Source of the DNA: an uncultured Victivallales bacterium
Lineage (GTDB): Bacteria > Verrucomicrobiota > Lentisphaeria > Victivallales > GWF2-45-14
Assembly: GCA_964651145.1 (NCBI GenBank)
Contig: CAZYVR010000001.1
Location: 6,839-70,838 of the forward strand
DNA: 64,000 bases
Direction: 5' to 3'
Part shown: in pieces, positions 13,979 through 59,500 of the stretch
Layout: every line of letters starts with the position of its first letter
Position numbering within the stretch: the first letter of the stretch is position 1
Program-made: the position numbers and the translations under genes
The notes under the pieces: model-generated
The model's input: only the letters and a program-made list of their open reading frames with translations
Told to the model about the DNA's origin: nothing
Databases searched by the model: none

Positions 13979-14791
13979 TCAGTCGTCGTCCGTCACTTCC
14001 AGGACAATGTCAAGCTGCATGGCTCCCTTAGGCGGTTTGGGCAAAGCTGAAAGTTCAGCGAGAAGGCGTTTGACAGATATATCCATTGCGGAAATGCCGC
14101 TAGATTTTATGATCTTTGTCGACTTCACTCGTCCAGCCGCGTCAATCGAAACCTGCACTGTCACTTCCGGGGTTCTGCCGCCCAATTCGGTTTTGAGAGG
14201 CTGTTTCCAAATTTTGTAAATATATCCGGAAACGACTTCATTATATTCCATTTCGGATTGGGACATGCGCGCGCCAGGCTCGGAGACAGTCACTGTCGAC
14301 TGCAAACTTTTCAAACGGCTGGCAATATTTTTCGCCGAAACTTTAGGTCGAGCTTTCTGAACCTTGCCTTTTACCTCGTTTTTTGAGATTTTTATCTTGG
14401 AGATATCCAGAGGTTTCCATTTTGGTTTTTTCGGCTTGGGCTTTTTGGGCTTCGGCTTGGGCTTCGGCTTGGGCTTCGGCTTGGTTTTCGGCTTCGGCTT
14501 TTGAGGTGGTTTCGGCCTTTCGGCTTTTGGCGGAGTTGGAGCAGGCGGAGCAGCGGAAGGCGCATTGGCGCTTTGCTCAGGCATGGGCTTAACCAGATTT
14601 ACCTGGATGCTTTTTGGACGCTTCGGCTTAAGCCACTGTATCATAAAATATACGCAAAGCGGAAGAATGACCAGAACGACATGCGCAATGATTACAATAA
14701 TTAAAATGCGCTTTTTTAAGCGTCTGCTTATCAGGCGCTTCTCTTCGTCTTTATTATGAAAATCAGAATAAAACTGTTTTTCTTTGCTCAT
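13979..14791 (-). CDS. tonB: TonB-like energy transducer
   Basis: Single N-terminal TM (ILIIVIIAHVVLVILPLCVYF). Pro/Lys-rich spacer PKPKTKPKPKPKPKPKPKKPKPKKPK, encoded by tandem ggcttN repeats at about 14431-14500. C-terminal TonB-like domain. The start overlaps the exbD stop (ATGA, 14788-14791). Confidence 0.8.
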   Translation of the reverse strand: MSKEKQFYSDFHNKDEEKRLISRRLKKRILIIVIIAHVVLVILPLCVYFMIQWLKPKRPKSIQVNLVKPMPEQSANAPSAAPPAPTPPKAERPKPPQKPKPKTKPKPKPKPKPKPKKPKPKKPKWKPLDISKIKISKNEVKGKVQKARPKVSAKNIASRLKSLQSTVTVSEPGARMSQSEMEYNEVVSGYIYKIWKQPLKTELGGRTPEVTVQVSIDAAGRVKSTKIIKSSGISAMDISVKRLLAELSALPKPPKGAMQLDIVLEVTDDD

Positions 14792-20878: not shown

Positions 20879-21739
20879 TCACTTTGCGCTTTTAGCCGGT
20901 GTTGAATTAGGGGCAGGCACTTTTTCTGTTTTCTTGGCCGGTTGTTTTTTCGGAGTAGACTTTGCCTTTGCTTTTGCCTTTGCCTTTGCCTTTTTTGCGG
21001 CAGCTTCGCTCTTAAGCCTTTCCTGGTCTTGTTTTTCCAGCTTTTTTAATTTTCGAATGGCATAATAGCCTATTTTCTTTTTGAACTTCTTGGACAACTC
21101 TTTATACTTCAGAAACTTAACTCCGCCATCATAAGCTATGTCTATCCCTCTCGGGTTCATATTGGTTATTTTTGCTTTTTTATAGGTTTTATTCTTTGTT
21201 TTTATGGTAAACAGAGAATTTTCCCTGAGCTTGTCGCTTTTTGAAATTTCTGTTTTCAAATCGCTTTTTGCCATTTCGCGTTCTCTCTCGGCTTTCAGAT
21301 TTGCAAGCAATTTTTTCTTCAAAGCATTTCTTTTTTCTTCCGTTGCCTTGCGTCTTTTTTCAGCGTCAAGCTTCTTTTTTTTAGCCGCCTTGCGTCTTTT
21401 TTCAGCGTCAAGCTTTCTCTTTTTAGCCGCTTTCTTTTTATTTATCTCCGCTTGTTTCTTTTTATTTATCTCCGCTTGTTTCTTTTTTTCCTCATTGTCT
21501 TTTTTGGCTTGTTCGCGCATCTGATCTTCCTTTGCCAGCCTCATGCGCTCGCCTTCTATATATGCTTTATGAAAGAAAAAAGCTATGACCCCGGCTATCA
21601 AAAGAATAATGATAAGATAGCCCATATTGCGGTTTTTCTTCTTCTTCGCAAATTCTTTAGCCATAGCCTCAGCCAAAGCGGCCTGCTCAGCAGGACTTTG
21701 CTCTGCTTCTTTATCTTTTTTATCCAAACTCAAACTCAT
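20879..21739 (-). CDS. lysine-rich, tandem-repeat, single-pass membrane protein of unknown function
   Basis: One TM (MGYLIIILLIAGVIAFFF), then a K/E/A coiled low-complexity region with exact peptide repeats (KKQAEINK x2, AAKK[R/K]KLDAEKRRK x2, (KA)6). A short beta-rich C-terminal segment follows (FTIKTKNKTYKKAKITNMNPRGIDIAYDGGVKFLKY). No family recognised. Confidence 0.6.
   Translation of the reverse strand: MSLSLDKKDKEAEQSPAEQAALAEAMAKEFAKKKKNRNMGYLIIILLIAGVIAFFFHKAYIEGERMRLAKEDQMREQAKKDNEEKKKQAEINKKKQAEINKKKAAKKRKLDAEKRRKAAKKKKLDAEKRRKATEEKRNALKKKLLANLKAEREREMAKSDLKTEISKSDKLRENSLFTIKTKNKTYKKAKITNMNPRGIDIAYDGGVKFLKYKELSKKFKKKIGYYAIRKLKKLEKQDQERLKSEAAAKKAKAKAKAKAKSTPKKQPAKKTEKVPAPNSTPAKSAK
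20961..20994. repeat. hexanucleotide tandem repeat (gcYttt)n inside the Lys-rich gene
   Basis: tttgcctttgcttttgcctttgcctttgcctttt read directly. It encodes AKAKAKAKAKAK on the minus strand. Confidence 0.9.
21345..21489. repeat. two adjacent coding tandem repeats (42 bp x2, 24 bp x2.4)
   Basis: The 42-bp unit gccttgcgtcttttttcagcgtcaagctt... occupies 21345-21386 and 21387-21428. The 24-bp unit tttctttttatttatctccgcttg occupies 21431-21454 and 21455-21478, with a partial third copy. Confidence 0.9.
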
Positions 21740-24125: not shown

Positions 24126-24707
24126 ATGAATATAAATATCTCAAGCGAAGTACTGGAAATGAACGACAAGCACATTGTCAAATTTATGAAAAACAATGAC
24201 ACTAAAAAACTTTTAAAATCATTCAATGGAAGAACTGATATTGGGTTTAGAAACGGAATGATTGTTTTGCTCAATAAAGAGGCTGAAATAAAAGAAAAAA
24301 CAAAACTGGGAATACAAATTCCAATAAGAAGCGAAAAAAGAAACATAAACACAGAGCATTGCATAAAATGCACGATGAAACATCTTGCGGCGGCAATCGT
24401 TGAAATGGGCGAACTCCGCAAAGGTTACTGGAATACAGACCATGAGATTTATTGCGCTGGAAACCTTAACGAAGCATCCGAGCAAATAGACGCTTATTCA
24501 AATAAAACAGCCATGACAATAAGAGGCATAAGGATAGATATTTTTGAGACAAAAAAAGAAGTGACTGAGCAGCACATTCAAGATGCAAAAGACATATTTT
24601 GGGATGTGAAAGAAATGCTGAAGAATCCGCCAGAATTGAAACCCAAAAAAGAGTGCGGATGCAATAAACGTAAAAAAACTGGAGATAATGAAAAACGCGT
24701 CTCTTGA
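24126..24707 (+). CDS. hypothetical protein (193 aa), third gene of the orphan trio
   Basis: SD-like aaaagga upstream, 21 nt after the previous stop. Contains HCIKCTMKHLAAAIVEMGELRKGYWNTDHEIYCAGNLNEASEQ and a basic C-terminus with CGCNKRKK. No family recognised. Confidence 0.55.
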   Translation: MNINISSEVLEMNDKHIVKFMKNNDTKKLLKSFNGRTDIGFRNGMIVLLNKEAEIKEKTKLGIQIPIRSEKRNINTEHCIKCTMKHLAAAIVEMGELRKGYWNTDHEIYCAGNLNEASEQIDAYSNKTAMTIRGIRIDIFETKKEVTEQHIQDAKDIFWDVKEMLKNPPELKPKKECGCNKRKKTGDNEKRVS

Positions 24708-24723
24708 ATAGACTTCTTAATTT

Positions 24724-24918
24724 TGATGGCTCCGTCAAAAGTCCTGAAAAATAAAAAAGCCGACGGAGTCGGAATAAAAACCGGACTATGTCAGGACGGC
24801 ATCCAGCGGCGGAATCGCTGGTCGGCAAAGCCGAAAGCTGTTGGCGCATAAAAGATTGCGCGACAGCAAGCTTTATTTCATTGCAGCGGCAGCTCCCTGG
24901 ACTTTTGGCGGCTTCGTC
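24724..24918 (+). mobile_element. MITE-like structured repeat, copy A (archetype)
   Basis: 195 bp with no ORF. Terminal inverted repeats CCGTCAAAAGTCC (24732-24744) and GGACTTTTGGCGG (24899-24911). Flanked by direct TAATTT (24718-24723 and 24919-24924). Interior hairpins at 24760-24772, 24781-24795, 24803-24821 and 24823-24833. Related copies occur elsewhere in the window. Confidence 0.6.
24747..24795 (-). terminator. tandem intrinsic terminators for the mscS-gmhB operon, supplied by repeat copy A
   Basis: Read on the minus strand: cctgacatagtccgg followed by tttttat, then ccgactccgtcgg followed by cttttttattttt. They lie 146-194 nt downstream of the gmhB-like stop (24941). Confidence 0.55.
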
Positions 24919-24940
24919 TAATTTCCAGAGCAGGCGCCAA

Positions 24941-25513
24941 TTAGCTGGCTTGAGAATTGCCTTTAAGGAGTAGTTTAACGGCTTCTTTTATGTTTTGGGC
25001 TATGATTGCCCCTTTTGCTTCTGGCGAAGCGGCTTCCTGTTCGCCATGCCCAGTCTTGACTAGAACAGTCTGCTTGCATCCCGCGTTTTCAGCCGCTTTA
25101 AGGTCGCTTAATTTGTCGCCTATCATAAAGGATTCGGCTAGATTTATAGAGTGGTCTTTTGCGGCTTGCAAGATCATTCCAGGCTCCGGCTTGCGGCAGC
25201 GGCATTCCAAAGAATATTTTGAAATGTTGCCATCTTTGTGGTGTGGACAATAATAGTACGCGCTGATCGCGGCTCCTGATCCGGCAAGGAGCTCGTCTAT
25301 TCTGGCGTTGACTTTTTTTACGCTTTCCTCGTCAAACATTCCTCTGGCCACGCCGGATTGATTGGATGCTACTATTGCTAAATAGCCGTTTTCTTCAAGC
25401 AGCTTGATGGCGTCTGAGGCTCCGGGGATAAGCCTGACTTTGTCTGGCGAATCTATATAATGCTCTTCTTCGATGAGCACTCCGTCTCTGTCCAGAAAAC
25501 ATGCTTTTTTCAT
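24941..25513 (-). CDS. gmhB: HAD-IIIA phosphatase, D,D-heptose 1,7-bisphosphate phosphatase-like
   Basis: MKKACFLDRDGVLIEE (DxDGT/V motif), SNQSGVARG, CRKPEPGM and MIGDKLSDLKAAENAG. The ATG at 25513 is preferred to the TTG at 25534. Confidence 0.75.
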   Translation of the reverse strand: MKKACFLDRDGVLIEEEHYIDSPDKVRLIPGASDAIKLLEENGYLAIVASNQSGVARGMFDEESVKKVNARIDELLAGSGAAISAYYYCPHHKDGNISKYSLECRCRKPEPGMILQAAKDHSINLAESFMIGDKLSDLKAAENAGCKQTVLVKTGHGEQEAASPEAKGAIIAQNIKEAVKLLLKGNSQAS

Positions 25514-25550
25514 TATGTCAAAAACTTTCAACAAGTTTGCGTTTTATTGG

Positions 25551-26486
25551 CTAAGATATTGCTGATTCAGTCGCGGCTTTGGATTTTTTTTCATTCATAT
25601 TATCGTAAAAGCGTTGCGTTGGGTATGCAAAATCAATGTCATTGTATTTGGCAAATTCTTCAAGGATGCTTTCCCACATGGCTTCTTCGCTTCCCCTGCG
25701 ATTGCGCGGCTGGACAAGGTATCGCATTGTCAGCAAAACTCCTGATTCAGTCACCGACGTGTAAACAATAGGCGTGAGATTTTTATAGAATATCAGATAT
25801 TTTTTGCTGGCTTCTTTTATCCTTTTTTCAGCCGGGCCTGAAAAATCATCTGAATTTCTTTGAGCAATTTCAAGAAGAACTTTTTTGCCTTTTTTCCAAT
25901 TGCTTTCAAAAGTCACAAGCACTGGCACTTCGTTCCAGATAAACTTGAAGCCTTCTGTATAGTTTATAATGTTGTCAGTAAGAATCTTGCTGTTTGACAC
26001 ATGAATAACCCGTCCTGTGCTCTGATCCGCATGGACCCATTTGCCAACTTCATTCAATGAGAATTTAAAGGGGCTTATATCAATGACATCTCCTTTTATC
26101 TCGTTGTCTATCTCAATGCGGTCGCCTATTTTAAACGGTCTGCGCCATAAAATAAAAAGCCATCCCGCCAGACTTTTAATCAAGTCCTGAAGCGCAATTG
26201 TAAGACCGGCGGCAATAAGTCCAAGCACATAAACCACCGATTCAGTCGCTTCAACCCATATTCTGGCAAGAGCCAGGAGAAGGATAATCAGATATGCGTA
26301 TCCTATACCCTTGCGCCAACGGTAACGCGCTTGCGGGTCGCTTGTTTTGCGCCAGATAAGCCTTTTGAAAAGAGTTTTTAATAGCCATAAGAGCAAAATG
26401 GCAATCAGGGAAACAAGCATTCTGGCTTGCCACTCCGAATCTAAGCCGGTAATCGCTTGTACCCAAATTCTAATGTCTTCTATCAT
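25551..26486 (-). CDS. mechanosensitive ion channel (MscS) family protein
   Basis: Three N-terminal TMs, then RPFKIGDRIEIDNEIKGDVIDISPFKFSL (MscS beta-domain signature). Confidence 0.8.
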   Translation of the reverse strand: MIEDIRIWVQAITGLDSEWQARMLVSLIAILLLWLLKTLFKRLIWRKTSDPQARYRWRKGIGYAYLIILLLALARIWVEATESVVYVLGLIAAGLTIALQDLIKSLAGWLFILWRRPFKIGDRIEIDNEIKGDVIDISPFKFSLNEVGKWVHADQSTGRVIHVSNSKILTDNIINYTEGFKFIWNEVPVLVTFESNWKKGKKVLLEIAQRNSDDFSGPAEKRIKEASKKYLIFYKNLTPIVYTSVTESGVLLTMRYLVQPRNRRGSEEAMWESILEEFAKYNDIDFAYPTQRFYDNMNEKKSKAATESAIS

Positions 26487-26592
26487 AATTTAACAAATGT
26501 CCTCTATGCTGCCTCTACAATATTGGACTTTCCCCAAGATTCAAGACTGGAGAAAGGGAACAGGAAAAATATTACCCTCACTTCAGTAATGC

Positions 26593-26841
26593 GACGAAGC
26601 CGCCAAAAGTCCCGGGAGCTGTCGCTGCAACGAAATAAAGCTTGTTGTCGCTTCGCGCCCCAACAAGCCGCAGGCTTTTAACGCGCCATGCGCGCTGTCG
26701 CGCAATCTTTTATATGCCAACAGCTTTCGGCTTTGCCGACCAGCGGTTCCGCCGCTGGATGGCGTCCGGACAAAGTCCGGTTTTTATTCCGACTCCGTCG
26801 GCTTTTTTAAAGTTTTAAGACTTTTAAAACTCAGTTTATCC
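26593..26841 (-). mobile_element. MITE-like structured repeat, copy B (inverted relative to A, with a ~48-nt internal insertion)
   Basis: The reverse complement of copy A aligns end to end: gacgaagccgccaaaagtcc...cgcgcaatctttta...ccagcggttccgccgctgg...ccggacaaagtccggtttttattccgactccgtcggctttttt. Flanked by direct AATGC (26588-26592 and 26842-26846). The right 58 nt overlap the pdxB 3' end. Confidence 0.6.
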
Positions 26842-27932
26842 AATGCTTCCTGAAGCGCTTGCGGAGCGTTAACCACTGTAAATGCCGGGAATTCTCTTCT
26901 TAACGGATAATCGCCGCGCTGTTTCTCAAATGTTTCCGGGTAATTGCGCAGGCGGGCGTCGTCATCCAAAGCGTTATAGCTTTGGGACACGGCTTTCAGC
27001 AGAATTTCCTCCTTTGAGCCGGAAGCAGACAAAAGATTTATTTCCGTTTCATCTGGAAGAGGCACATTTTCCGGCTTCCAGTCATCCAGGCCGAGTTTGA
27101 GAAATTTAGAAATTGCGTTGACGCTCATTTTTGTTCCATTGGCTTTGCCGTCCGCGGAGTAGCCCGCAATATGCGGCGTGGCTATGTCTGTCAATCCAAG
27201 CAGTTCCCTGTTTATGTTCGGCTCGTTTTCCCAGACATCAACTGCTGCGCCGGAAATAAGTTTGTCTTTTATTGCGGAAATCAGGGCTCCGGTTTCCGCC
27301 ACTTCACCTCTTGAGGAATTTATAAAAAACGGACGCTTGTTCAGGGATGCGAAAAATGATGAGTCGGCAAGATGAAATGTTTTGTCTTCGCCATCTCTGT
27401 TGAGCGGGACATGCATTGTGATAAAGTCCGCCTCTGAGCGAATATCTTTCAGAGAGCAAAATCCTTCAGGCCCTTCTTTCCTTGCGCGCGGAGGGTCGGA
27501 AAGCAATACGCGCATTCCAAGAGCTTCGCCGACTTTCGCAACCTTGCTTCCCACATTGCCAACGCCTACAACGCCAAGGGTTTTGTCTGTTAGGCTGATA
27601 TTGTTTTTCACGGCAAGATTCAGCAGGACTGATGTTATGTATTGCGCCACAGATGACGAATTGCAGCCCGGCGCGTTTGTCCACGCTATGCCGTTTGAGT
27701 CGCAGTACGCTCCGTCTATATGGTCGTGTCCTATTGTGGCCGAAGCTATAATTTTCACGGACGATCCGGCAAGCAGCTTTTCATTGCATTTTGTCCGCGT
27801 CCTGGTTATCAGCGCGTCAGCGTCTTTGACTATTTCAGGTGTAGTCTCTTTGCCTGGCATGTAAACGACTTCCGCAACGCCTTCAAGCGCCCCTCTTAAA
27901 AACGGTATCTTGTCATCCGCTATTATTTTCAT
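26784..27932 (-). CDS. pdxB: 4-phosphoerythronate dehydrogenase (D-2-hydroxyacid dehydrogenase family)
   Basis: MKIIADDKIPFLRGALEGVAEVVYMPGKE (PdxB-like N-terminus). NAD-binding LGVVGVGNVGSKV, catalytic HIAGYS, and a PdxB-type C-terminal extension. The last ~19 codons lie inside repeat copy B. Confidence 0.8.
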   Translation of the reverse strand: MKIIADDKIPFLRGALEGVAEVVYMPGKETTPEIVKDADALITRTRTKCNEKLLAGSSVKIIASATIGHDHIDGAYCDSNGIAWTNAPGCNSSSVAQYITSVLLNLAVKNNISLTDKTLGVVGVGNVGSKVAKVGEALGMRVLLSDPPRARKEGPEGFCSLKDIRSEADFITMHVPLNRDGEDKTFHLADSSFFASLNKRPFFINSSRGEVAETGALISAIKDKLISGAAVDVWENEPNINRELLGLTDIATPHIAGYSADGKANGTKMSVNAISKFLKLGLDDWKPENVPLPDETEINLLSASGSKEEILLKAVSQSYNALDDDARLRNYPETFEKQRGDYPLRREFPAFTVVNAPQALQEALDKLSFKSLKTLKKPTESE

Positions 27933-28141
27933 TTTTTTCTTTCTTATATTACTGTATCAAATATTCCGAAAAATAAACTTTCTCAATAACGCCTTTAGCA
28001 TTTATCTCTTCAAGCATTTGGTTTGCGACTGCCTTTATTTCTTTCGCAAACATTTGAAATTTTAAATATATCATTTAAGAGGCTAAACGCCAAAAAAATA
28101 GTTAAAAAGTAGCCATCTGCACAGCCGCACCAACATAATAG

Positions 28142-28260
28142 GTTTAAAAAGTGGCTTTGCCACCGGCTTTGCAGACCAGCGATTCCGCCGCTGGATAGCG
28201 TCAGGACAAAGTCCGGTTTTTATTCCGACTCTGTCGGCTTTTCTTTTTGAGAGAGCCATT
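28142..28260 (-). repeat. MITE-like repeat, copy C (partial, same orientation as B, alternative arm)
   Basis: gtttaaaaagtggctttgccaccggctttgcagaccagcgattccgccgctggatagcgtcaggacaaagtccggtttttattccgactctgtcggcttttc. The three hairpins are shared with copies A and B. The other arm matches the short form at 40450-40470. Confidence 0.8.
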
Positions 28261-28373
28261 CATTTTCTCATTCAACGCAAAATTGCATAAAAAAAACTTC
28301 TTTCCTTTTTAAATAGGACATTTTCGGCTATATTTATAATGTATTTGGGAGTTAAAATTTCAGGAGAAGGAAT

Positions 28374-28706
28374 ATGGGGTCAGAATCACCAGACAGCATT
28401 AGGGGAATATCCGATTATCTTCGCGAAGAATTCGATCTTGACAAAGAAGACGTAGAGGAAATGCTTGATGAATTTATCAAAAATATAAACTCGCTTGTAC
28501 AGACAGGCAAAGAACAAATTGAGAAATCTTCCTGGGAGGACTTGAAAAGAACAGGCCATTCTGTAAAGGGAGCCGCCGCAAATATTGGCGCAAATTTTAT
28601 TTCAAAAGCGGGGAAACAGCTCGAAGAACATGCTTTGTCAGCAAATAAAAGCGAATGCGAATTATTTGTGGAGCAAATAGCCAAAGGGCTTGACTGCCTG
28701 AGATAA
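28374..28706 (+). CDS. stand-alone Hpt (histidine phosphotransfer) domain protein
   Basis: Phosphorylatable His motif RTGHSVKGAAANIGA within a ~110-aa helical protein. The stop overlaps the nth start (TAATG). Confidence 0.75.
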   Translation: MGSESPDSIRGISDYLREEFDLDKEDVEEMLDEFIKNINSLVQTGKEQIEKSSWEDLKRTGHSVKGAAANIGANFISKAGKQLEEHALSANKSECELFVEQIAKGLDCLR

Positions 28707-40408: not shown

Positions 40409-40470
40409 GAATGGTCGGAACCGCCAAAAGTCCTTAAAAATAAAAGAAACCGGCAAAGCCACTTTTAAAC
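40409..40470 (+). repeat. MITE-like repeat, short form (copy E)
   Basis: gaatggtcggaaccgccaaaagtccttaaaaataaaagaaaccggcaaagccacttttaaac. The left arm of A/D is joined directly to the alternative arm seen in copy C, and the hairpin core is absent. Confidence 0.7.
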
Positions 40471-40493
40471 TCACTTCGTGGGGGCGCCGACGT

Positions 40494-53189: not shown

Positions 53190-53267
53190 TATTTAAACTC
53201 CTCCGCATTAATTAAAATATTCGCGCCCAACTATATAACAACGTTGCAAAAAAGCCAACTCTTGGAT

Positions 53268-53347
53268 TAAAAAAAGTTGAATTTTCATGTTGACAGGCAA
53301 GGGATGGAAGAGTAAAAAGTCCTGAAAAAGAAAAGACACCGGCAAAG
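53268..53347 (+). repeat. composite repeat, copy F: A-run/TTGACAG module plus short-form MITE-like arm
   Basis: ttaaaaaaagttgaattttcatgttgacaggcaagg (53268-53302) matches 56342-56378. gatgg...aaaagtcctgaaaaagaaaagacaccggcaaag (53303-53347) matches copy E up to ccggcaaag and then diverges. Confidence 0.75.
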
Positions 53348-56341: not shown

Positions 56342-56480
56342 TTAAAAAAAGTTAAGTTTTTATGTTGACAGACAATGCGATGGCTCCGCCAAAAGTCTTG
56401 AAAAATAAAAGACCCCGCTAGAGGCGGCATAAAAACCGGATTTCATCCGGGCTTGATCCAACGAAGAATGCGTTGGCAGC
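56342..56480 (+). repeat. composite repeat, copy D: A-run/TTGACAG module plus diverged MITE-like element
   Basis: ttaaaaaaagttaagtttttatgttgacagacaatgc (56342-56378), then gatggctccgccaaaagtcttgaaaaataaaag. Three hairpins follow (56415-56427, 56436-56450, 56458-56476) in the same order and spacing as in copy A, but with different stem sequences. Confidence 0.75.
56401..56450 (-). terminator. tandem intrinsic terminators for the 56501-59965 hydrolase gene, supplied by repeat copy D
   Basis: On the minus strand: ccggatgaaatccgg followed by tttttat, then ccgcctctagcgg followed by ggtcttttattttt. They lie 51-100 nt downstream of the stop at 56501. Confidence 0.6.
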
Positions 56481-56500
56481 CACCGCCTGCGTTGATTTTT

Positions 56501-59500
56501 TCAGTCTGTTCCGGTCTCGATTATATACCAGGCGCTTGCGCGGCCCTTTTCGCCAATCTTGACAGATACCTCACTGTCATCGTCCTGAAAAAGAATATTT
56601 CTTTCAAACCAGTTAGGCTTCGAGCCTTTGCCTTTTATCTTTTTTACAGATGCCATAGCTGTCATATTCGGATTCAATGGCGTGATTCTGGCAGATTCAG
56701 CCTTAAGCTTTATTGCAGCCTTCACTGGTTCAATTCTGACTTGTCCGCGGCCCGGCCCTCTCGGCCTTTTTACTATCATTCCTGTGCCATAATCAAAGCC
56801 GGAAGGCGATTTTTCAACCGCCGAGAAAGACGCTGTTTCGCCGTCATTTCGCACTCTGCCCACAGAAGAGACCAGAATTTTTTCCGATTTATCCAATGGT
56901 TTGCCGTCCAAAGAGCTGAGGACAATTGTGCAGTATGGAGTTTTAGGAATTATTTCAATGTCTCTGAATTTTATAGTTCCTTTTGGGAACCCGGTGAATC
57001 CCTGAGTTCGAGGCGTGTCCACTTTGAGAATGTTTTCTTTCCAGTTACGTTCGATTTCTCCTGTGTCGCTTATTATTTTCCCGTCCTGCAAACCTTTGTC
57101 TTTGTCAATCAGCCCTTGTTCTTTCATTGCTTTGTCGAGTTTTTTTGCAAGCTTTGCGCCGTCATCGCAATCCAACAGGTCAGCCTTGAAATCGCAGTCA
57201 TTGCCTTTGCCGATGACAATGTCTGCGCGTCCGTCAGCTTTGTCGAACACGTTTTCTACTCTGGATACAAAAGTCATATAGTTCCATGGAGCCGTCCCAG
57301 CTCCTCGAAAAATGCCTTTGGCGGAAAGTTTTTCATCTCCGGCAAATTTGACCTGCGCCAGTTTTTTTGCGGGAGCGACATCGCGTCTGTGGAACATAAG
57401 CGCGGCCATAGGAAACATTCCCATCAGGGCAGGGTCGTTAAACTCCACAGTCCCCTGCAAAACTCCCTTGGCGTTGTCCGCCACATCCCACGAATATCCC
57501 CAGCCGCCGAAATAACAATAGTGAAAGATGGCGTCCCAATCCTGCAGCGCTGAGGTTGAGCCTACCGACATGAAATATCCAGAGCGCCAGTCATGCGGCC
57601 ACATCATATCAGACTCGGTGCTTGTCAACGGCATAGTGTTTACTTTAACAGCCGCAAGCACAGGCTCGATAAGGCTGGATTCCAAAGGATTGACGCTTAC
57701 AAAAGGAATGTTTGCGTTAATTTTTTCATTCTTTTTTAGGCTTTTTTTGTTGTGTGCGTAATACATGTTTTGCGATGTGTAGTCCGTAAGCCTTTGAGTG
57801 TCCAATGAAGCAGGGCTGTATAATATGTTTGTTCCCGCCACCGGGACTTTGCAGCCAAGGGATTTCACGTATTCAATCATTTCTTTGTGATAATCGCTTT
57901 GAATTTTTTTGTAAAATGCAACCGCGTCTTTGACTCTGGCACCCGACCATTTTCCTTCTCCCTGGATATTGGAGATGTCCGGGGTTTTAACTGTTCCTTT
58001 TGCTGGGTCTTCATCTTTTTGCAGGCAAGGAGAGCCATCTTTTGCGCCCCAGGCTTGCTTTAGTTTTTTTCTGTCTCCATATTTGTCCAGAAGCCATTTA
58101 TTGAACATTTGCGTTAGAAGCTCATGATAATAGACTGGGTCGTTTTTGTTTTTTTTCCAGTCAAAAAAAACAGTTTGTTCATTTATCAGCATCAGCATCG
58201 ACACAGCGGGCTCTTCAAGCAAAGATTTTCCGGTATATTGGTTTTTGCGCGTCATGAATTCTTTCATATATTTTTTGCCCATTTCAATGAGGCGCCTGCT
58301 GTAATATGCCCAGGGACGATGGGATTTGTAGAGTTTATAGCCTGGGACTTCATCGCCGGGCTTTATTTTTCTTGCTGAAAGGCCGGTAATGGAATCTATA
58401 AGGATATAAATGCCCTTGTCTTTCAGGCATTTCACAAAGTAGTCAAATTTTTCAAGCTGTTTTTCCGGAACAAGCTTGTCGGTAGTTTTTCCGTTTGGGT
58501 CGATTGTCACACCTTCCGTAAGATGAAAGCGAATTATATTTACACCCATCCGCGACAATGTGTCCGCCACTCTTTCCGCCTGTTCGTGAGTGGGATAAAG
58601 CCCTCTGTTTGAGTGGATGTTTGTTCCGAAAAACCTTGCCGGCGTTCCGTCTTCAAACACAAAATGCCCATTTTGGACCTTCAAAAAGCCATGCTTTCCG
58701 GCAGGCGCGTCAAGCAGAAAAGACAAATCAAGCAATGTGTCTTTTTTTGTTTTGCAGTTTTGAATGTTGAATGGAATCCAGTCAGAGGTGTCCAGAGCCT
58801 CGACTGCGGCGGTTTCTTTGGAGCATGGCGCGCTGCCAGTTGTGGCGGCCAAAATCATCCAGATCGCATTTCCGTCAGAAAAAGCCTTAAAAACAATGTC
58901 CTTTACTGTTTTTTGTGGAGATGGATTTTTTATGGATGCCGCAAAAAGTCTTGCTTTGGGTTTCATTGGATTGGCGTCGACTATTTTAAGGGAGGCTTCG
59001 GAGGCAAAACCGCCCCACCAGTCGGCAACCTGACGGCTTGATGTTATTTCCGCTGTTTGCTTTGAGCCATCGGCATAATTAAATTCTATCTGGCTTTTTG
59101 CGCCAGCCTTCATCCAGGCTCCTGAGCTCAGAATACTGAGATATTTGAATTTTCTGTTTACTGGGATTTGAGCTGATTTGAGGAAAAAGCTGTTTTCAGT
59201 CTCCTTCAGGACAATCGCTGATTTTCCTTTGTTCTTAGCAGGATCGATTATCTCAAAAGGAATGCCGCCAAGCTCAAAGTTTTCGATATTCATTCTTCTC
59301 AGGTCATTTTTTCCCTGATCGGTCCATCCGCCTTTTCCATCTCCGCTTTTCTCGTCCTTAAATCCTCTGTTTGCGACTTCCTTCAAGCTTAAAGGAGAAT
59401 TATTAATTTCAATAAAACTAAGATCATCGGCAAAAATTGCGCTTTTAAATTTTTTATTATTACCTGCCACGGGAAATATTGCAGGCCTGAGAAGCGTGGC

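What the first reader, a model, noticed from the sequence alone, without database searches (positions are those of the whole stretch)
26588..26846. MITE-like insertion into the 3' end of pdxB creates an element-encoded C-terminal tail
Copy B is flanked by direct AATGC (26588-26592 and 26842-26846). The right-hand AATGC and the adjacent element sequence lie inside pdxB. The last codons ...EAL-DKLSFKSLKTLKKPTESE-stop are read from the element, and the stop (26784-26786) falls in the T-run linker between two element hairpins. Deleting the element and one AATGC copy in silico restores gaa gca tta ctg aag tga. That is an ORF ending ...QALQEALLK-stop, just two codons past the junction. The reconstruction fits a genuine insertion event that swapped the last 2 residues for an 18-residue tail.
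Basis: partly seen in the sequence, partly recalled or inferred. Interest (0 to 1): 0.6.

Follow-up and report, generated by a model that had tools for sequence, protein, structure and literature searches.

The report
Truncated MITE supplies pdxB's stop codon

Summary
The repeat is a real MITE. In related metagenome contigs it is 244 bp long, has 20-bp terminal inverted repeats (GACGGNNCCGCCAAAAGTCC) and perfect 6-bp target duplications, and occurs in at least 57 copies. The pdxB ORF (26784..27932, minus strand) does run into copy B and stops at a TAA between two element hairpins.

115 of 119 homologues carry [LIF][GS]F there. L364 and F369 sit in columns at least 90% conserved. The Salmonella crystal-structure sequence ends ...KLGFNA. 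An AlphaFold helix (358-366) crosses the proposed junction with pLDDT about 94.

Copy B is 96.7% identical to the family consensus up to 26810, but it lacks the outer 12 nt of its right inverted repeat and has no right-hand target duplication. The right-hand AATGC is codons A363/L364. The reconstructed "EALLK-stop" ancestor is therefore not supported.

Only S371-E382 (12 residues, predicted disordered) and the stop come from the element. They replace roughly 1-5 native residues. The most likely history is an insertion at or just past the gene end, followed by a short deletion at an AAA(AG) microhomology. At least five other genes in the metagenome loci end inside this MITE. This is a new member of a known kind, of low interest.

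The parts
26784..27932 (-). pdxB ORF as it now stands (382 aa, stop included)
   Evidence: ORF list. NCBIfam PdxB NF001309 scores 439.9 bits against a cutoff of 434 and aligns residues 1-370 to model positions 1-377 of 379. Pfam finds 2-Hacid_dh, 2-Hacid_dh_C and DUF3410.
26826..27932 (-). Native pdxB coding sequence, M1 to F369.
   Evidence: L364, G368 and F369 lie in columns at least 90% conserved across 50 sequences. 115 of 119 homologues have [LIF][GS][F..] near the C-terminus. PDB 3OET aligns through residue 371. AF2 helix 358-366, pLDDT 94 for residues 361-370.
26842..26846 (.). Right-hand AATGC of the finding. It is part of codons A363 (26844-46) and L364 (26841-43) and is not a target-site duplication.
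   Evidence: Codon map. L364 is nearly invariant. There is no element sequence between it and 26826.
26819..26825 (.). Junction zone. GACTTTT is the inner part of the right inverted repeat. It covers codon K370 (26823-25), all of codon S371 (26820-22) and one base of L372. AAA(AG) is shared by the native and element readings, so the exact breakpoint is ambiguous.
   Evidence: Alignment of B to the consensus of 25 canonical copies. Orthologues have K/T/R at this position.
26784..26822 (-). Element-derived tail S371-E382 (SLKTLKKPTESE) plus the TAA stop (26784-26786)
   Evidence: Sequence shared with copies A and C and with the family consensus. pLDDT is 55 for residues 371-380 and below 50 for 375-382. 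The window protein has 13 residues after F369, against 1-10 (mode 2) in 115 homologues.
26593..26825 (+). MITE copy B, truncated at its right end (233 nt of a 244-nt element)
   Evidence: 205 of 212 positions (96.7%) match the consensus over 26593-26810. The left inverted repeat is intact and the right outer 12 nt are missing.
26593..26612 (+). Left terminal inverted repeat of B (GACGAAGCCGCCAAAAGTCC)
26587..26592 (.). TAATGC, the hexamer flanking the left end of B. It is the surviving half of a 6-bp target duplication. Its reverse complement GCATTA is the family's favoured target.
   Evidence: Perfect 6-bp duplications in 16 of 32 full copies. GCATT[AG] is the commonest flank.
26766..26801 (+). 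Two hairpin-plus-T-run modules of the element (26766-26780 and 26789-26801). They are terminator-like on the plus strand only, which is antisense to pdxB.
26811..26831 (.). Perfect 8-bp palindrome (AGTTTTAA, 5 nt, TTAAAACT) straddling the junction. One arm is element sequence and the other is codons S368-K370.
   Evidence: 15 such palindromes in 64 kb. A B-specific 3-4-nt patch on the element side completes it and removes the in-frame TAA seen in other copies.
24725..24918 (-). MITE copy A (194 bp, internal 50-nt deletion, both inverted repeats present). It lies 22 nt downstream of the gmhB stop, with its terminator-like hairpins in the sense orientation for gmhB.
   Evidence: The flanks are TAATTT / TAATTT, offset by 1 nt on one side.
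28087..28261 (+). MITE copy C, a degenerate member of a roughly 176-bp subfamily, in the pdxB / Hpt-gene divergent spacer. Boundaries are approximate.

Best explanation
Copy B belongs to a high-copy, non-autonomous transposon (MITE) family. The family element is 244 bp long, has 20-bp terminal inverted repeats and 6-bp target duplications, is built from several short hairpins, and has no coding capacity.

Copy B lies antisense to pdxB and has lost the outer 12 nt of its right inverted repeat and the adjoining target duplication. Native pdxB runs uninterrupted through F369. K370 is ambiguous, because AAA is shared by both readings. The reading frame then enters the element at the inner-repeat sequence AAAAGTC and is translated for 12 more codons (SLKTLKKPTESE). 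It ends at a TAA in the A/T linker between two element hairpins.

Shown:
- the family and its ends;
- the truncation of B;
- that DKLSF(K) is native;
- that the tail and the stop lie in element sequence.

Inferred:
- The element first inserted canonically at a GCATTA site at or just past the gene's last codons. A short deletion then removed the last 1-5 native codons, the stop, the right target duplication and the outer repeat. The deletion probably used A-rich microhomology, perhaps after transposase cleavage at that end.
- A B-specific 3-4-nt change then removed the in-frame TAA that ends the ORF after 5 residues in other copies (KSPEK-stop, KSSEK-stop).
- The catalytic and dimerisation domains are intact and the new tail is predicted to be disordered, so the change is probably near-neutral.
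- The element offers no terminator in the pdxB direction, so pdxB is probably co-transcribed with mscS and gmhB and terminated in copy A.
For: Family:
- A 19-nt core found 60 metagenome loci, 57 of them true unique copies.
- 16 of 32 full copies have perfect, differing 6-bp duplications directly abutting the repeats GACGG..CCGCCAAAAGTCC.
- The modal length is 244 bp.
- No Rfam family matches.

Copy B:
- It is 96.7% identical to the consensus over 26593-26810, against a family mean of 88.9%. It is therefore a little-diverged copy, so point mutation cannot have erased its repeat.
- The outer repeat matches at most 4 of 10 positions at any offset.

Native C-terminus:
- The PdxB HMM aligns to residue 370, model position 377 of 379. 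Pfam DUF3410 reaches residue 367.
- L364, G368 and F369 are at least 90% conserved.
- 115 of 119 homologues carry the motif, with 1-10 residues (mode 2) after the F position, against 13 here.
- Orthologue L009 encodes KKLSFKMG-stop with different synonymous codons.
- Salmonella 3OET aligns as ...LLCKLGFNA.

Assembly: an independent ENA assembly has the identical pdxB/MITE junction and breaks inside the element.

Recurrence:
- GH2 and RidA-like genes end ...D[DG][ST]AKSPEK-stop inside copies that keep the right-end inverted repeat.
- QueH (Pfam 174 of 175 at residue 183 of 186) and HydF end in copies that lack the outer part of that repeat and break at or within 2 nt of the same AAAAGTC boundary.
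- A class-V aminotransferase gene ends inside a degenerate copy.
- Full copies sit 0-40 nt beyond gene ends in 16 of 35 cases.

Precedent: Coxiella QMITEs overlap gene 3' ends by 1-50 bp and supply 33 C-terminal residues of EnhC (PMC5896051).
Against: - A 5/6 copy of the left flank hexamer (GCATTG against GCATTA on the minus strand), followed by GAT (the repeat starts GAC/GAT), lies 15 nt from the AAAAGTC boundary, where a canonical copy would have it at 12 nt. 'GCATTA at 5/6 or better, then GAY' occurs at 6.25e-5 per position in the window. That makes it roughly a 1-in-1000 coincidence that this model does not explain.
- No empty-site or full-repeat allele of this locus exists in the collections searched. 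The 90% cluster has a single member and the nearest orthologue is 73-76% identical. The deletion step is therefore inferred, not observed.
- Continuity from the element to the left flank (below 26645) rests on one assembly.
- Half of the full copies in the metagenome contigs lack matching duplications, so rearrangement or chimeric assembly at this repeat is common.
- The family consensus comes from contigs that do not overlap the window.
Confidence: 0.75

Rival explanations
1. A complete element inserted at AATGC inside pdxB and duplicated it. The ancestral protein ended ...QEALLK-stop, and all 18 residues DKLSFKSLKTLKKPTESE are element-encoded.
For: - AATGC occurs on both sides.
- The span 26593-26840 is 248 bp, close to the canonical 244 bp.
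- GAT follows the right-hand hexamer, as in some inverted repeats.
- The in-silico excision gives an ORF that stops two codons later.
Against: - DKLSF matches the conserved PdxB C-terminal motif in the correct register. The chance that 12 arbitrary bases encode K-L-[SG]-F is about 1e-5.
- The 15 nt 26826-26840 have no similarity to the outer repeat, although the rest of B is 96.7% consensus.
- The proposed ancestor would lack a motif present in 115 of 119 homologues, and would be 366 aa against 370-377 for nearly all close homologues.
- The family's duplication is 6 bp and the match here is only 5/6.
Confidence: 0.03
2. Hybrid model. A canonical insertion did occur at GCATTR (26841-46). The outer 9 nt of the repeat were later replaced by 12 nt that restored the KLSF motif, for example by recombination with an intact allele joined at the AAA microhomology.
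For: It would explain both the conserved motif and the 5/6 hexamer plus GAT at the canonical distance.
Against: - After such an insertion the displaced native tail (GAT AAA CTG AGT TTT...) should follow the left-hand GCATTA. It does not, and the two flanks are not significantly similar (84% of shuffles score as well).
- It needs an extra, unusual event.
Confidence: 0.04
3. The truncation is larger. AGT CTT AAA ACT (S371-T374) is also native, and element sequence begins only at about 26810 (TTTAAAAAAGCCGAC). The element-derived tail would then be only about 7-8 residues (KKPTESE).
For: - The stretch 26811-26825 matches the majority consensus poorly (5 of 15 in the MAFFT alignment; 11 of 15 when re-aligned by eye with a 1-nt shift).
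- It is A/T-rich, so chance similarity is easier.
Against: - GACTTTT matches the inner repeat exactly and in register to within 1 nt.
- TTTTAAGACTTTT occurs as a natural variant in other copies (L018, L035).
- No homologue has more than 10 residues after the F position.
- Other copies that lack the outer repeat also break at or within 2 nt of the AAAAGTC boundary.
Confidence: 0.08
4. Assembly artefact. The contig is chimeric at the repeat, so the left flank (mscS side) is not truly adjacent to pdxB.
For: - The independent ENA contig stops inside the element at window 26645.
- 16 of 32 full copies in short-read contigs have unmatched flanks.
Against: - The pdxB-to-element junction and the whole tail, including the stop, are identical in two assemblies.
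- The main conclusion does not depend on the left flank.
Confidence: 0.1

Closest known systems
Coxiella burnetii QMITE1/QMITE2 (Wachter et al. 2018, PMC5896051)
   Same: Both are high-copy bacterial MITEs with terminal inverted repeats and direct repeats. Their copies overlap the 3' ends of functional genes by 1-50 bp. In strain Dugway an indel links enhC to a QMITE2 copy, so the last 33 residues are read from the element. That is the same two-step logic proposed here: an element next to the gene end, then a small lesion that fuses the frame.
   Different: The sequence, host phylum (Lentisphaerota-like MAG) and architecture are unrelated. Here the fused end of the element has lost its outer inverted repeat.
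Rickettsia palindromic elements (RPE; reviewed in PMC10969869)
   Same: A small palindromic repeat contributes translated residues to housekeeping proteins without destroying them.
   Different: RPEs insert in frame inside genes and are read through as an internal peptide. Here the element is entered only at the extreme 3' end and terminates the ORF. There is no evidence of a conserved element-encoded peptide with a role.
Terminator-like MITEs such as SPRITE of pneumococcus and Correia/NEMIS of Neisseria (named in PMC10969869; details from general knowledge)
   Same: Both are short non-autonomous elements carrying hairpin-plus-T-run modules that sit just downstream of genes. 16 of 35 full copies here lie 0-40 nt past a gene end.
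   Different: Termination activity was not tested. In copy B the terminator-like modules are antisense to pdxB. The target duplication is 6 bp, whereas Correia duplicates TA.

Membership tests
MITE (miniature inverted-repeat transposable element) | Small size (under about 500 bp) with no transposase gene | tested here: met
   The canonical length is 244 bp. Only short chance ORFs lie inside B.
MITE (miniature inverted-repeat transposable element) | Terminal inverted repeats | tested here: met
   GACGGNNCCGCCAAAAGTCC occurs at both ends of 32 full copies and of window copy A. Copy B itself keeps only the left repeat and the inner 7 nt of the right one.
MITE (miniature inverted-repeat transposable element) | Target-site duplication that differs between copies | tested here: met
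   16 of 32 full copies have perfect 6-bp duplications of differing sequence. For copy B itself this is not met: the right-hand duplication is absent and the 5/6 match lies in conserved coding sequence.
MITE (miniature inverted-repeat transposable element) | Many dispersed copies in one genome or population | tested here: met
   60 loci were found, 57 of them unique true copies, almost all from two JGI metagenomes. There are 3 copies plus 3 variant or solo ends in the 64-kb window.
MITE (miniature inverted-repeat transposable element) | A cognate autonomous IS with the same inverted repeats | tested here: inconclusive
   No repeat pair 0.6-4 kb apart was found in the window or the 60 loci. There was no hit in viral contigs. 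The source genome is not among the GTDB representative genomes.
PdxB (4-phosphoerythronate dehydrogenase) | Score above the curated family cutoff, with catalytic, NAD-binding and C-terminal dimerisation (DUF3410) domains | tested here: met
   NF001309 scores 439.9 bits against a cutoff of 434. Three Pfam domains are found. PDB 3OET, 5DT9 and 2O4C match at E = 6e-74 to 6e-61. AF2 mean pLDDT is 91.
PdxB (4-phosphoerythronate dehydrogenase) | Conserved C-terminal L-x-K-L-[GS]-F motif, followed by 1-10 residues | tested here: met
   The motif is present (L364...L367 S368 F369). The tail after it is 13 residues, longer than in all 115 motif-bearing homologues.
RPE-type in-frame coding insertion | The element is read through in frame, with host coding sequence resuming on the far side | tested here: not met
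   The ORF stops 12 codons into the element. Nothing resembling pdxB follows the element.
Rfam structured RNA families | Covariance-model match | tested here: not met
   No match at gathering thresholds in 64 kb, and none at E <= 1 in 24600-28400.

The most novel reading that the evidence does not exclude
Loss of the outer half of the inverted repeat may not be random decay but a recurrent, mechanistically defined outcome for this family. The proposed mechanism is transposase cleavage at one end, followed by resection up to the protein-protected inner repeat and microhomology joining. Four of the seven right-end-truncated copies break within 2 nt of the same AAAAGTC boundary, and three of those four fuse the element to the last codons of housekeeping genes (pdxB, queH, hydF). 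This process, together with a strong habit of landing 0-40 nt past gene ends and inside the duplications of existing copies, would make the family a systematic rewriter of gene 3' ends, stop codons and short C-terminal tails in this lineage.
Probability: 0.2. Interest if true: 0.45.

Novelty: new member of a known kind. Interest (0 to 1): 0.22.

Why it matters
For annotation, the pdxB here is intact and should not be called disrupted or chimeric. Only a 12-residue, probably disordered tail is foreign.

For method, the case shows that a flanking short direct repeat read by eye is weak evidence for an insertion junction. Comparing the protein's C-terminus with orthologues and building the element's own consensus moved the junction by 15-21 nt and reversed the inferred ancestral state.

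The MITE family itself (244 bp, 6-bp duplications, favoured GCATTA target, tandem insertion into existing copies, frequent position just past gene ends) appears undescribed in the literature searched. It could be useful as a marker of this Lentisphaerota-like lineage and as material for studying how MITEs reshape gene ends. MITE/gene 3'-end overlaps and element-supplied C-termini are already documented, for example in Coxiella and Rickettsia.

Tried and rejected
- The genome-contig scan with the core hairpin gave 5 chance hits in unrelated taxa. The source genome is not among the GTDB representatives, so no same-species copies or empty site could be obtained there.
- Rfam, both at gathering thresholds on the window and at E-value thresholds on 24600-28400, gave nothing. 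The element is not a known RNA family.
- I looked for an empty-site or alternative allele. The 90% cluster of the protein has a single member and the nearest orthologues are 73-76% identical with different neighbours. No direct test of the ancestral state was possible.
- I tested whether the left flank carries a decayed copy of the pdxB tail, meaning a longer duplication or a displaced native tail. The local alignment scores no better than 84% of shuffles, so this was rejected.
- I tested whether the outer repeat survives in diverged form at any offset in 26819-26850. The maximum is 4 of 10, so this was rejected.
- I asked whether the copies lacking the outer repeat could have transposed as shorter units. 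Neither B (TAATGC against AAAACT) nor L035 has a duplication abutting the truncated end, so this was rejected.
- I searched for the autonomous IS through repeat pairs 0.6-4 kb apart and by a scan of viral contigs. Nothing was found.
- I considered a quasi-palindrome templated mutation at the junction. It was weakened on inspection, because 6 of the 8 bases of the element-side arm also occur in natural variants (L018, L035). Only a 3-4-nt patch is specific to B. I keep it as a low-confidence note.
- One fuzzy-regex survey of repeat ends under-sampled the copies and was not used.
Full report
**What is at the coordinates**

The window carries a 382-codon ORF on the minus strand (26784..27932). 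It is PdxB:
- NCBIfam NF001309 scores 439.9 bits against a cutoff of 434.
- Pfam finds the catalytic, NAD-binding and DUF3410 dimerisation domains.
- The solved PdxB structures 3OET, 5DT9 and 2O4C match at E = 6e-74 to 6e-61.

The ORF ends ...QALQEALDKLSFKSLKTLKKPTESE-stop.
- AATGC lies at 26588-92 and at 26842-46.
- The stop, at 26784-86, lies in the T-rich linker between hairpins 26766-80 and 26789-801.
- Deleting 26593-26846 leaves gaa gca tta ctg aag tga.

**The repeat is a genuine MITE family**

Within the window there are three copies:
- Copy A, 24725-24918, is inverted relative to B.
- Copy B starts at 26593.
- Copy C, about 28087-28261, is degenerate.

The source genome is absent from the GTDB representative genomes. 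A 19-nt core from the element found 60 loci in JGI metagenome contigs, nearly all from two samples. 57 of them are unique true copies.

Aligning these copies defines the element:
- The modal length is 244 bp.
- The terminal inverted repeats are GACGGNNCCGCCAAAAGTCC.
- In 16 of 32 full copies a perfect 6-bp direct duplication directly abuts both ends. The sequence differs from copy to copy (CAATTA, TAGTTC, CATGTC, TCACTA, GCATTA...).

This is the signature of transposition. Other properties of the family:
- Flanking hexamers are strongly biased towards GCATT[AG]-like sequences.
- Copies often lie head to tail with exactly the duplicated 6-mer between them.
- 16 of 35 full copies sit 0-40 nt beyond the 3' end of a long ORF.
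- One strand carries two hairpin-plus-T-run modules.
- The transcript folds into a chain of local hairpins.
- No Rfam family matches.
- No autonomous partner was found.

**Where copy B really ends**

Against the consensus of 25 canonical copies, B matches 205 of 212 positions (96.7%) over 26593-26810. The family mean is 88.9%.

Further to the right:
- GACTTTT (26819-25) matches the inner part of the right inverted repeat.
- From 26826 onwards similarity ends. The outer 12 nt (GGCGGNNCCGTC) are not present at any offset; the best match is 4 of 10.

A copy this close to consensus cannot have lost its repeat end by point mutation. B is therefore truncated at its right end and has no right-hand target duplication.

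The 15 nt 26826-40, plus the hexamer 26841-46, encode A363 L364 D365 K366 L367 S368 F369. The evidence that these residues are native:
- The PdxB HMM aligns through residue 370, model position 377 of 379.
- DUF3410 reaches residue 367.
- In a 50-sequence alignment L364, G368 and F369 are at least 90% conserved.
- 115 of 119 homologues (60-76% identical, mostly Lentisphaerota/Victivallales MAGs) have [LIF][GS][F/Y..] followed by 1-10 residues, with a mode of 2.
- The closest matches in register are P0004 ...DALKKLSFKMG-stop and P0054 ...KNAPDSVKESLKKLGFTVLD-stop.
- Orthologue loci L007 and L009 carry no repeat. L009 spells KKLSFK with different synonymous codons (aaa aaa ctt tca ttc aaa), as expected for selection on the protein.
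- Even the Salmonella PdxB structure sequence aligns as ...LLCKLGFNA.
pLDDT is 94 for residues 361-370, 55 for 371-380 and below 50 for 375-382.

The proposed ancestor ...EALLK-stop would lack a near-universal motif.

**Corrected anatomy**

- Native coding sequence runs to F369 (26826-28).
- Codon K370 (aaa) falls within the AAAAGTC of the element, so the breakpoint is ambiguous over 26819-25.
- S371-E382 (SLKTLKKPTESE, 26787-26822) and the TAA stop are element sequence, shared with copies A and C and with the consensus.
- The protein has 13 residues after F369, more than any of the 115 homologues.
- About 1-5 native residues were therefore exchanged for a 12-residue, lysine-rich tail that is predicted to be disordered.
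- An independent ENA assembly carries the identical junction and tail and breaks inside the element at window 26645.

**How it probably arose (inference)**

The left end of B is flanked by TAATGC, whose reverse complement GCATTA is the family's favourite target. The simplest history has three steps:
1. A canonical insertion occurred at a GCATTA at or just beyond the last pdxB codons.
2. A short deletion then removed the remaining native codons, the stop, the right duplication and the outer 12 nt of the repeat. It joined at A-rich microhomology.
3. A B-specific 3-4-nt patch (AAAG instead of ATT, 26810-13) removed the in-frame TAA that ends the frame after five residues in other copies (KSPEK-stop, KSSEK-stop). 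The same patch completes a perfect 8-bp palindrome across the junction (26811-18 and 26824-31). There are 15 such palindromes in 64 kb.

Whether that patch was templated by the palindrome is uncertain. Six of the eight bases also occur in natural variants.

**This is recurrent in the family**

In the metagenome loci other genes end inside this MITE:
- A GH2 glycosidase (...DDSAKSPEK-stop) and a RidA-like protein (...DGTAKSPEK-stop) end inside copies that keep the right-end inverted repeat.
- QueH (Pfam model complete to 174 of 175 at residue 183 of 186, then HQKS-stop) and HydF (...YKSSEK-stop) end in copies that, like B, lack the outer repeat.
- A class-V aminotransferase gene ends in a degenerate copy.

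Four of the seven right-truncated copies break within 2 nt of the AAAAGTC boundary. That hints at a preferred breakpoint, but the sample is small.

**The unexplained residue**

GCATTG followed by GAT sits 15 nt from the AAAAGTC boundary. A complete copy would have GCATTA followed by GAC/GAT at 12 nt. The pattern occurs at 6.25e-5 per position in the window, so this is about a 1-in-1000 coincidence.

I weigh it against three points:
- The chance that arbitrary sequence would encode K-L-[SG]-F in register is about 1e-5.
- No displaced native tail lies beyond the left end.
- The finding was selected precisely because of this match.

A hybrid history, with a canonical insertion followed by patch repair, cannot be excluded, but it needs more events.

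**Comparison with what is known, and verdict**

MITEs that overlap gene 3' ends and supply C-terminal residues are documented:
- Coxiella QMITE1/2 overlap functional genes by 1-50 bp, and an indel links enhC to a QMITE2 copy that provides 33 residues (PMC5896051).
- Rickettsia RPEs are translated in frame inside genes (PMC10969869).

The present element meets the defining features of a MITE, apart from an identified parent IS. It is not an RPE-type read-through insertion. A literature search for MITEs in Lentisphaerae found nothing relevant.

Verdict:
An element-derived tail and stop exist, but the junction, the duplication and the ancestral reconstruction are wrong.
- This is a new member of a known kind and is probably near-neutral for PdxB.
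- Interest is low.

Noticed in passing
L010:133-627; also L015, L017, L023, L051, L064, L068: MITE copies lie head to tail with exactly 6 bp between them, and the same 6-mer is repeated after the second copy. A new copy has inserted into the target duplication of an existing copy. This looks like targeting of element ends.
   Followed up: partly
flanks of all copies in L010-L069 and the window: The hexamers next to either end are strongly non-random (GCATT[AG], GCCTT[AG], TAATxx). GCATTAC recurs at independent sites, which indicates a sequence-specific target preference.
   Followed up: partly
L010-L069, 32 full copies: Half of the full copies (16 of 32) have unmatched flanking hexamers. The cause is either frequent recombination between copies or chimeric short-read assembly across the 244-bp repeat.
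   Followed up: no
L035:5114-5671 (QueH), L052:1-444 (HydF), L040/L049, window 26819-26825: Four of the seven right-end-truncated copies break within 2 nt of the same point, the boundary between the outer 12 nt and the inner AAAAGTCC of the inverted repeat. Three of them are fused to the last codons of a gene.
   Followed up: partly
L034:761-2479 and L058:1414-2550: Copies that keep the right-end inverted repeat sit at the 3' ends of a GH2 glycosidase gene and a RidA-like gene. Both proteins end with the element-encoded peptide D[DG][ST]AKSPEK-stop, in the same frame as the pdxB tail.
   Followed up: partly
window 56342-56500: A variant element has the same terminal repeat (GATGGCTCCGCCAAAAGTCT at 56379), but three internal hairpins have stems changed on both sides relative to copies A and B. 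It abuts the stop codon (56501-56503) of a 1154-aa minus-strand ORF. A 70-nt stretch upstream is repeated at 53267-53339.
   Followed up: no
window 40414-40480 and 53303-53339: Solo right-end-like repeat motifs (CCGCCAAAAGTCCTTAAAAATAAAAG...) are followed by different internal modules, one of which resembles the left part of copy C. The family appears to be a mosaic of exchangeable hairpin modules.
   Followed up: no
L014 and L045 (right end of the element): The terminal hairpin/T-run module (GGTTTTTATTCCGACTGCGTCGAGCTTTTTTGGCTACGCC) is tandemly triplicated within one copy.
   Followed up: no
window 26811-26831: A perfect 8-bp palindrome (AGTTTTAA, 5 nt, TTAAAACT) spans the pdxB/MITE junction. 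The element-side arm contains the only B-specific departure from the family sequence, and that change also removes the in-frame TAA used by other copies.
   Followed up: partly
window 24725-28261: Three copies of the family lie within 3.6 kb around pdxB-mscS-gmhB. Copy A presents its terminator-like hairpins in the sense orientation 22 nt after gmhB. Copy B presents none in the pdxB direction, which suggests that pdxB-mscS-gmhB is one transcript ending in copy A.
   Followed up: no
window 14430-14500 and 21345-21487: Tandem repeats occur with a 12-nt unit (TTCGGCTTGGGC, about 6 copies) and with 42-nt and 24-nt units (2-2.4 copies, 93-100% matches).
   Followed up: no
L035, L047, L062, L041 flanks: Several MITE copies are flanked by a second shared sequence (..AGTGAAGCTGGCGCAACTGGCAAGCTTAGC..). 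This suggests another repeat family that this MITE inserts next to.
   Followed up: no
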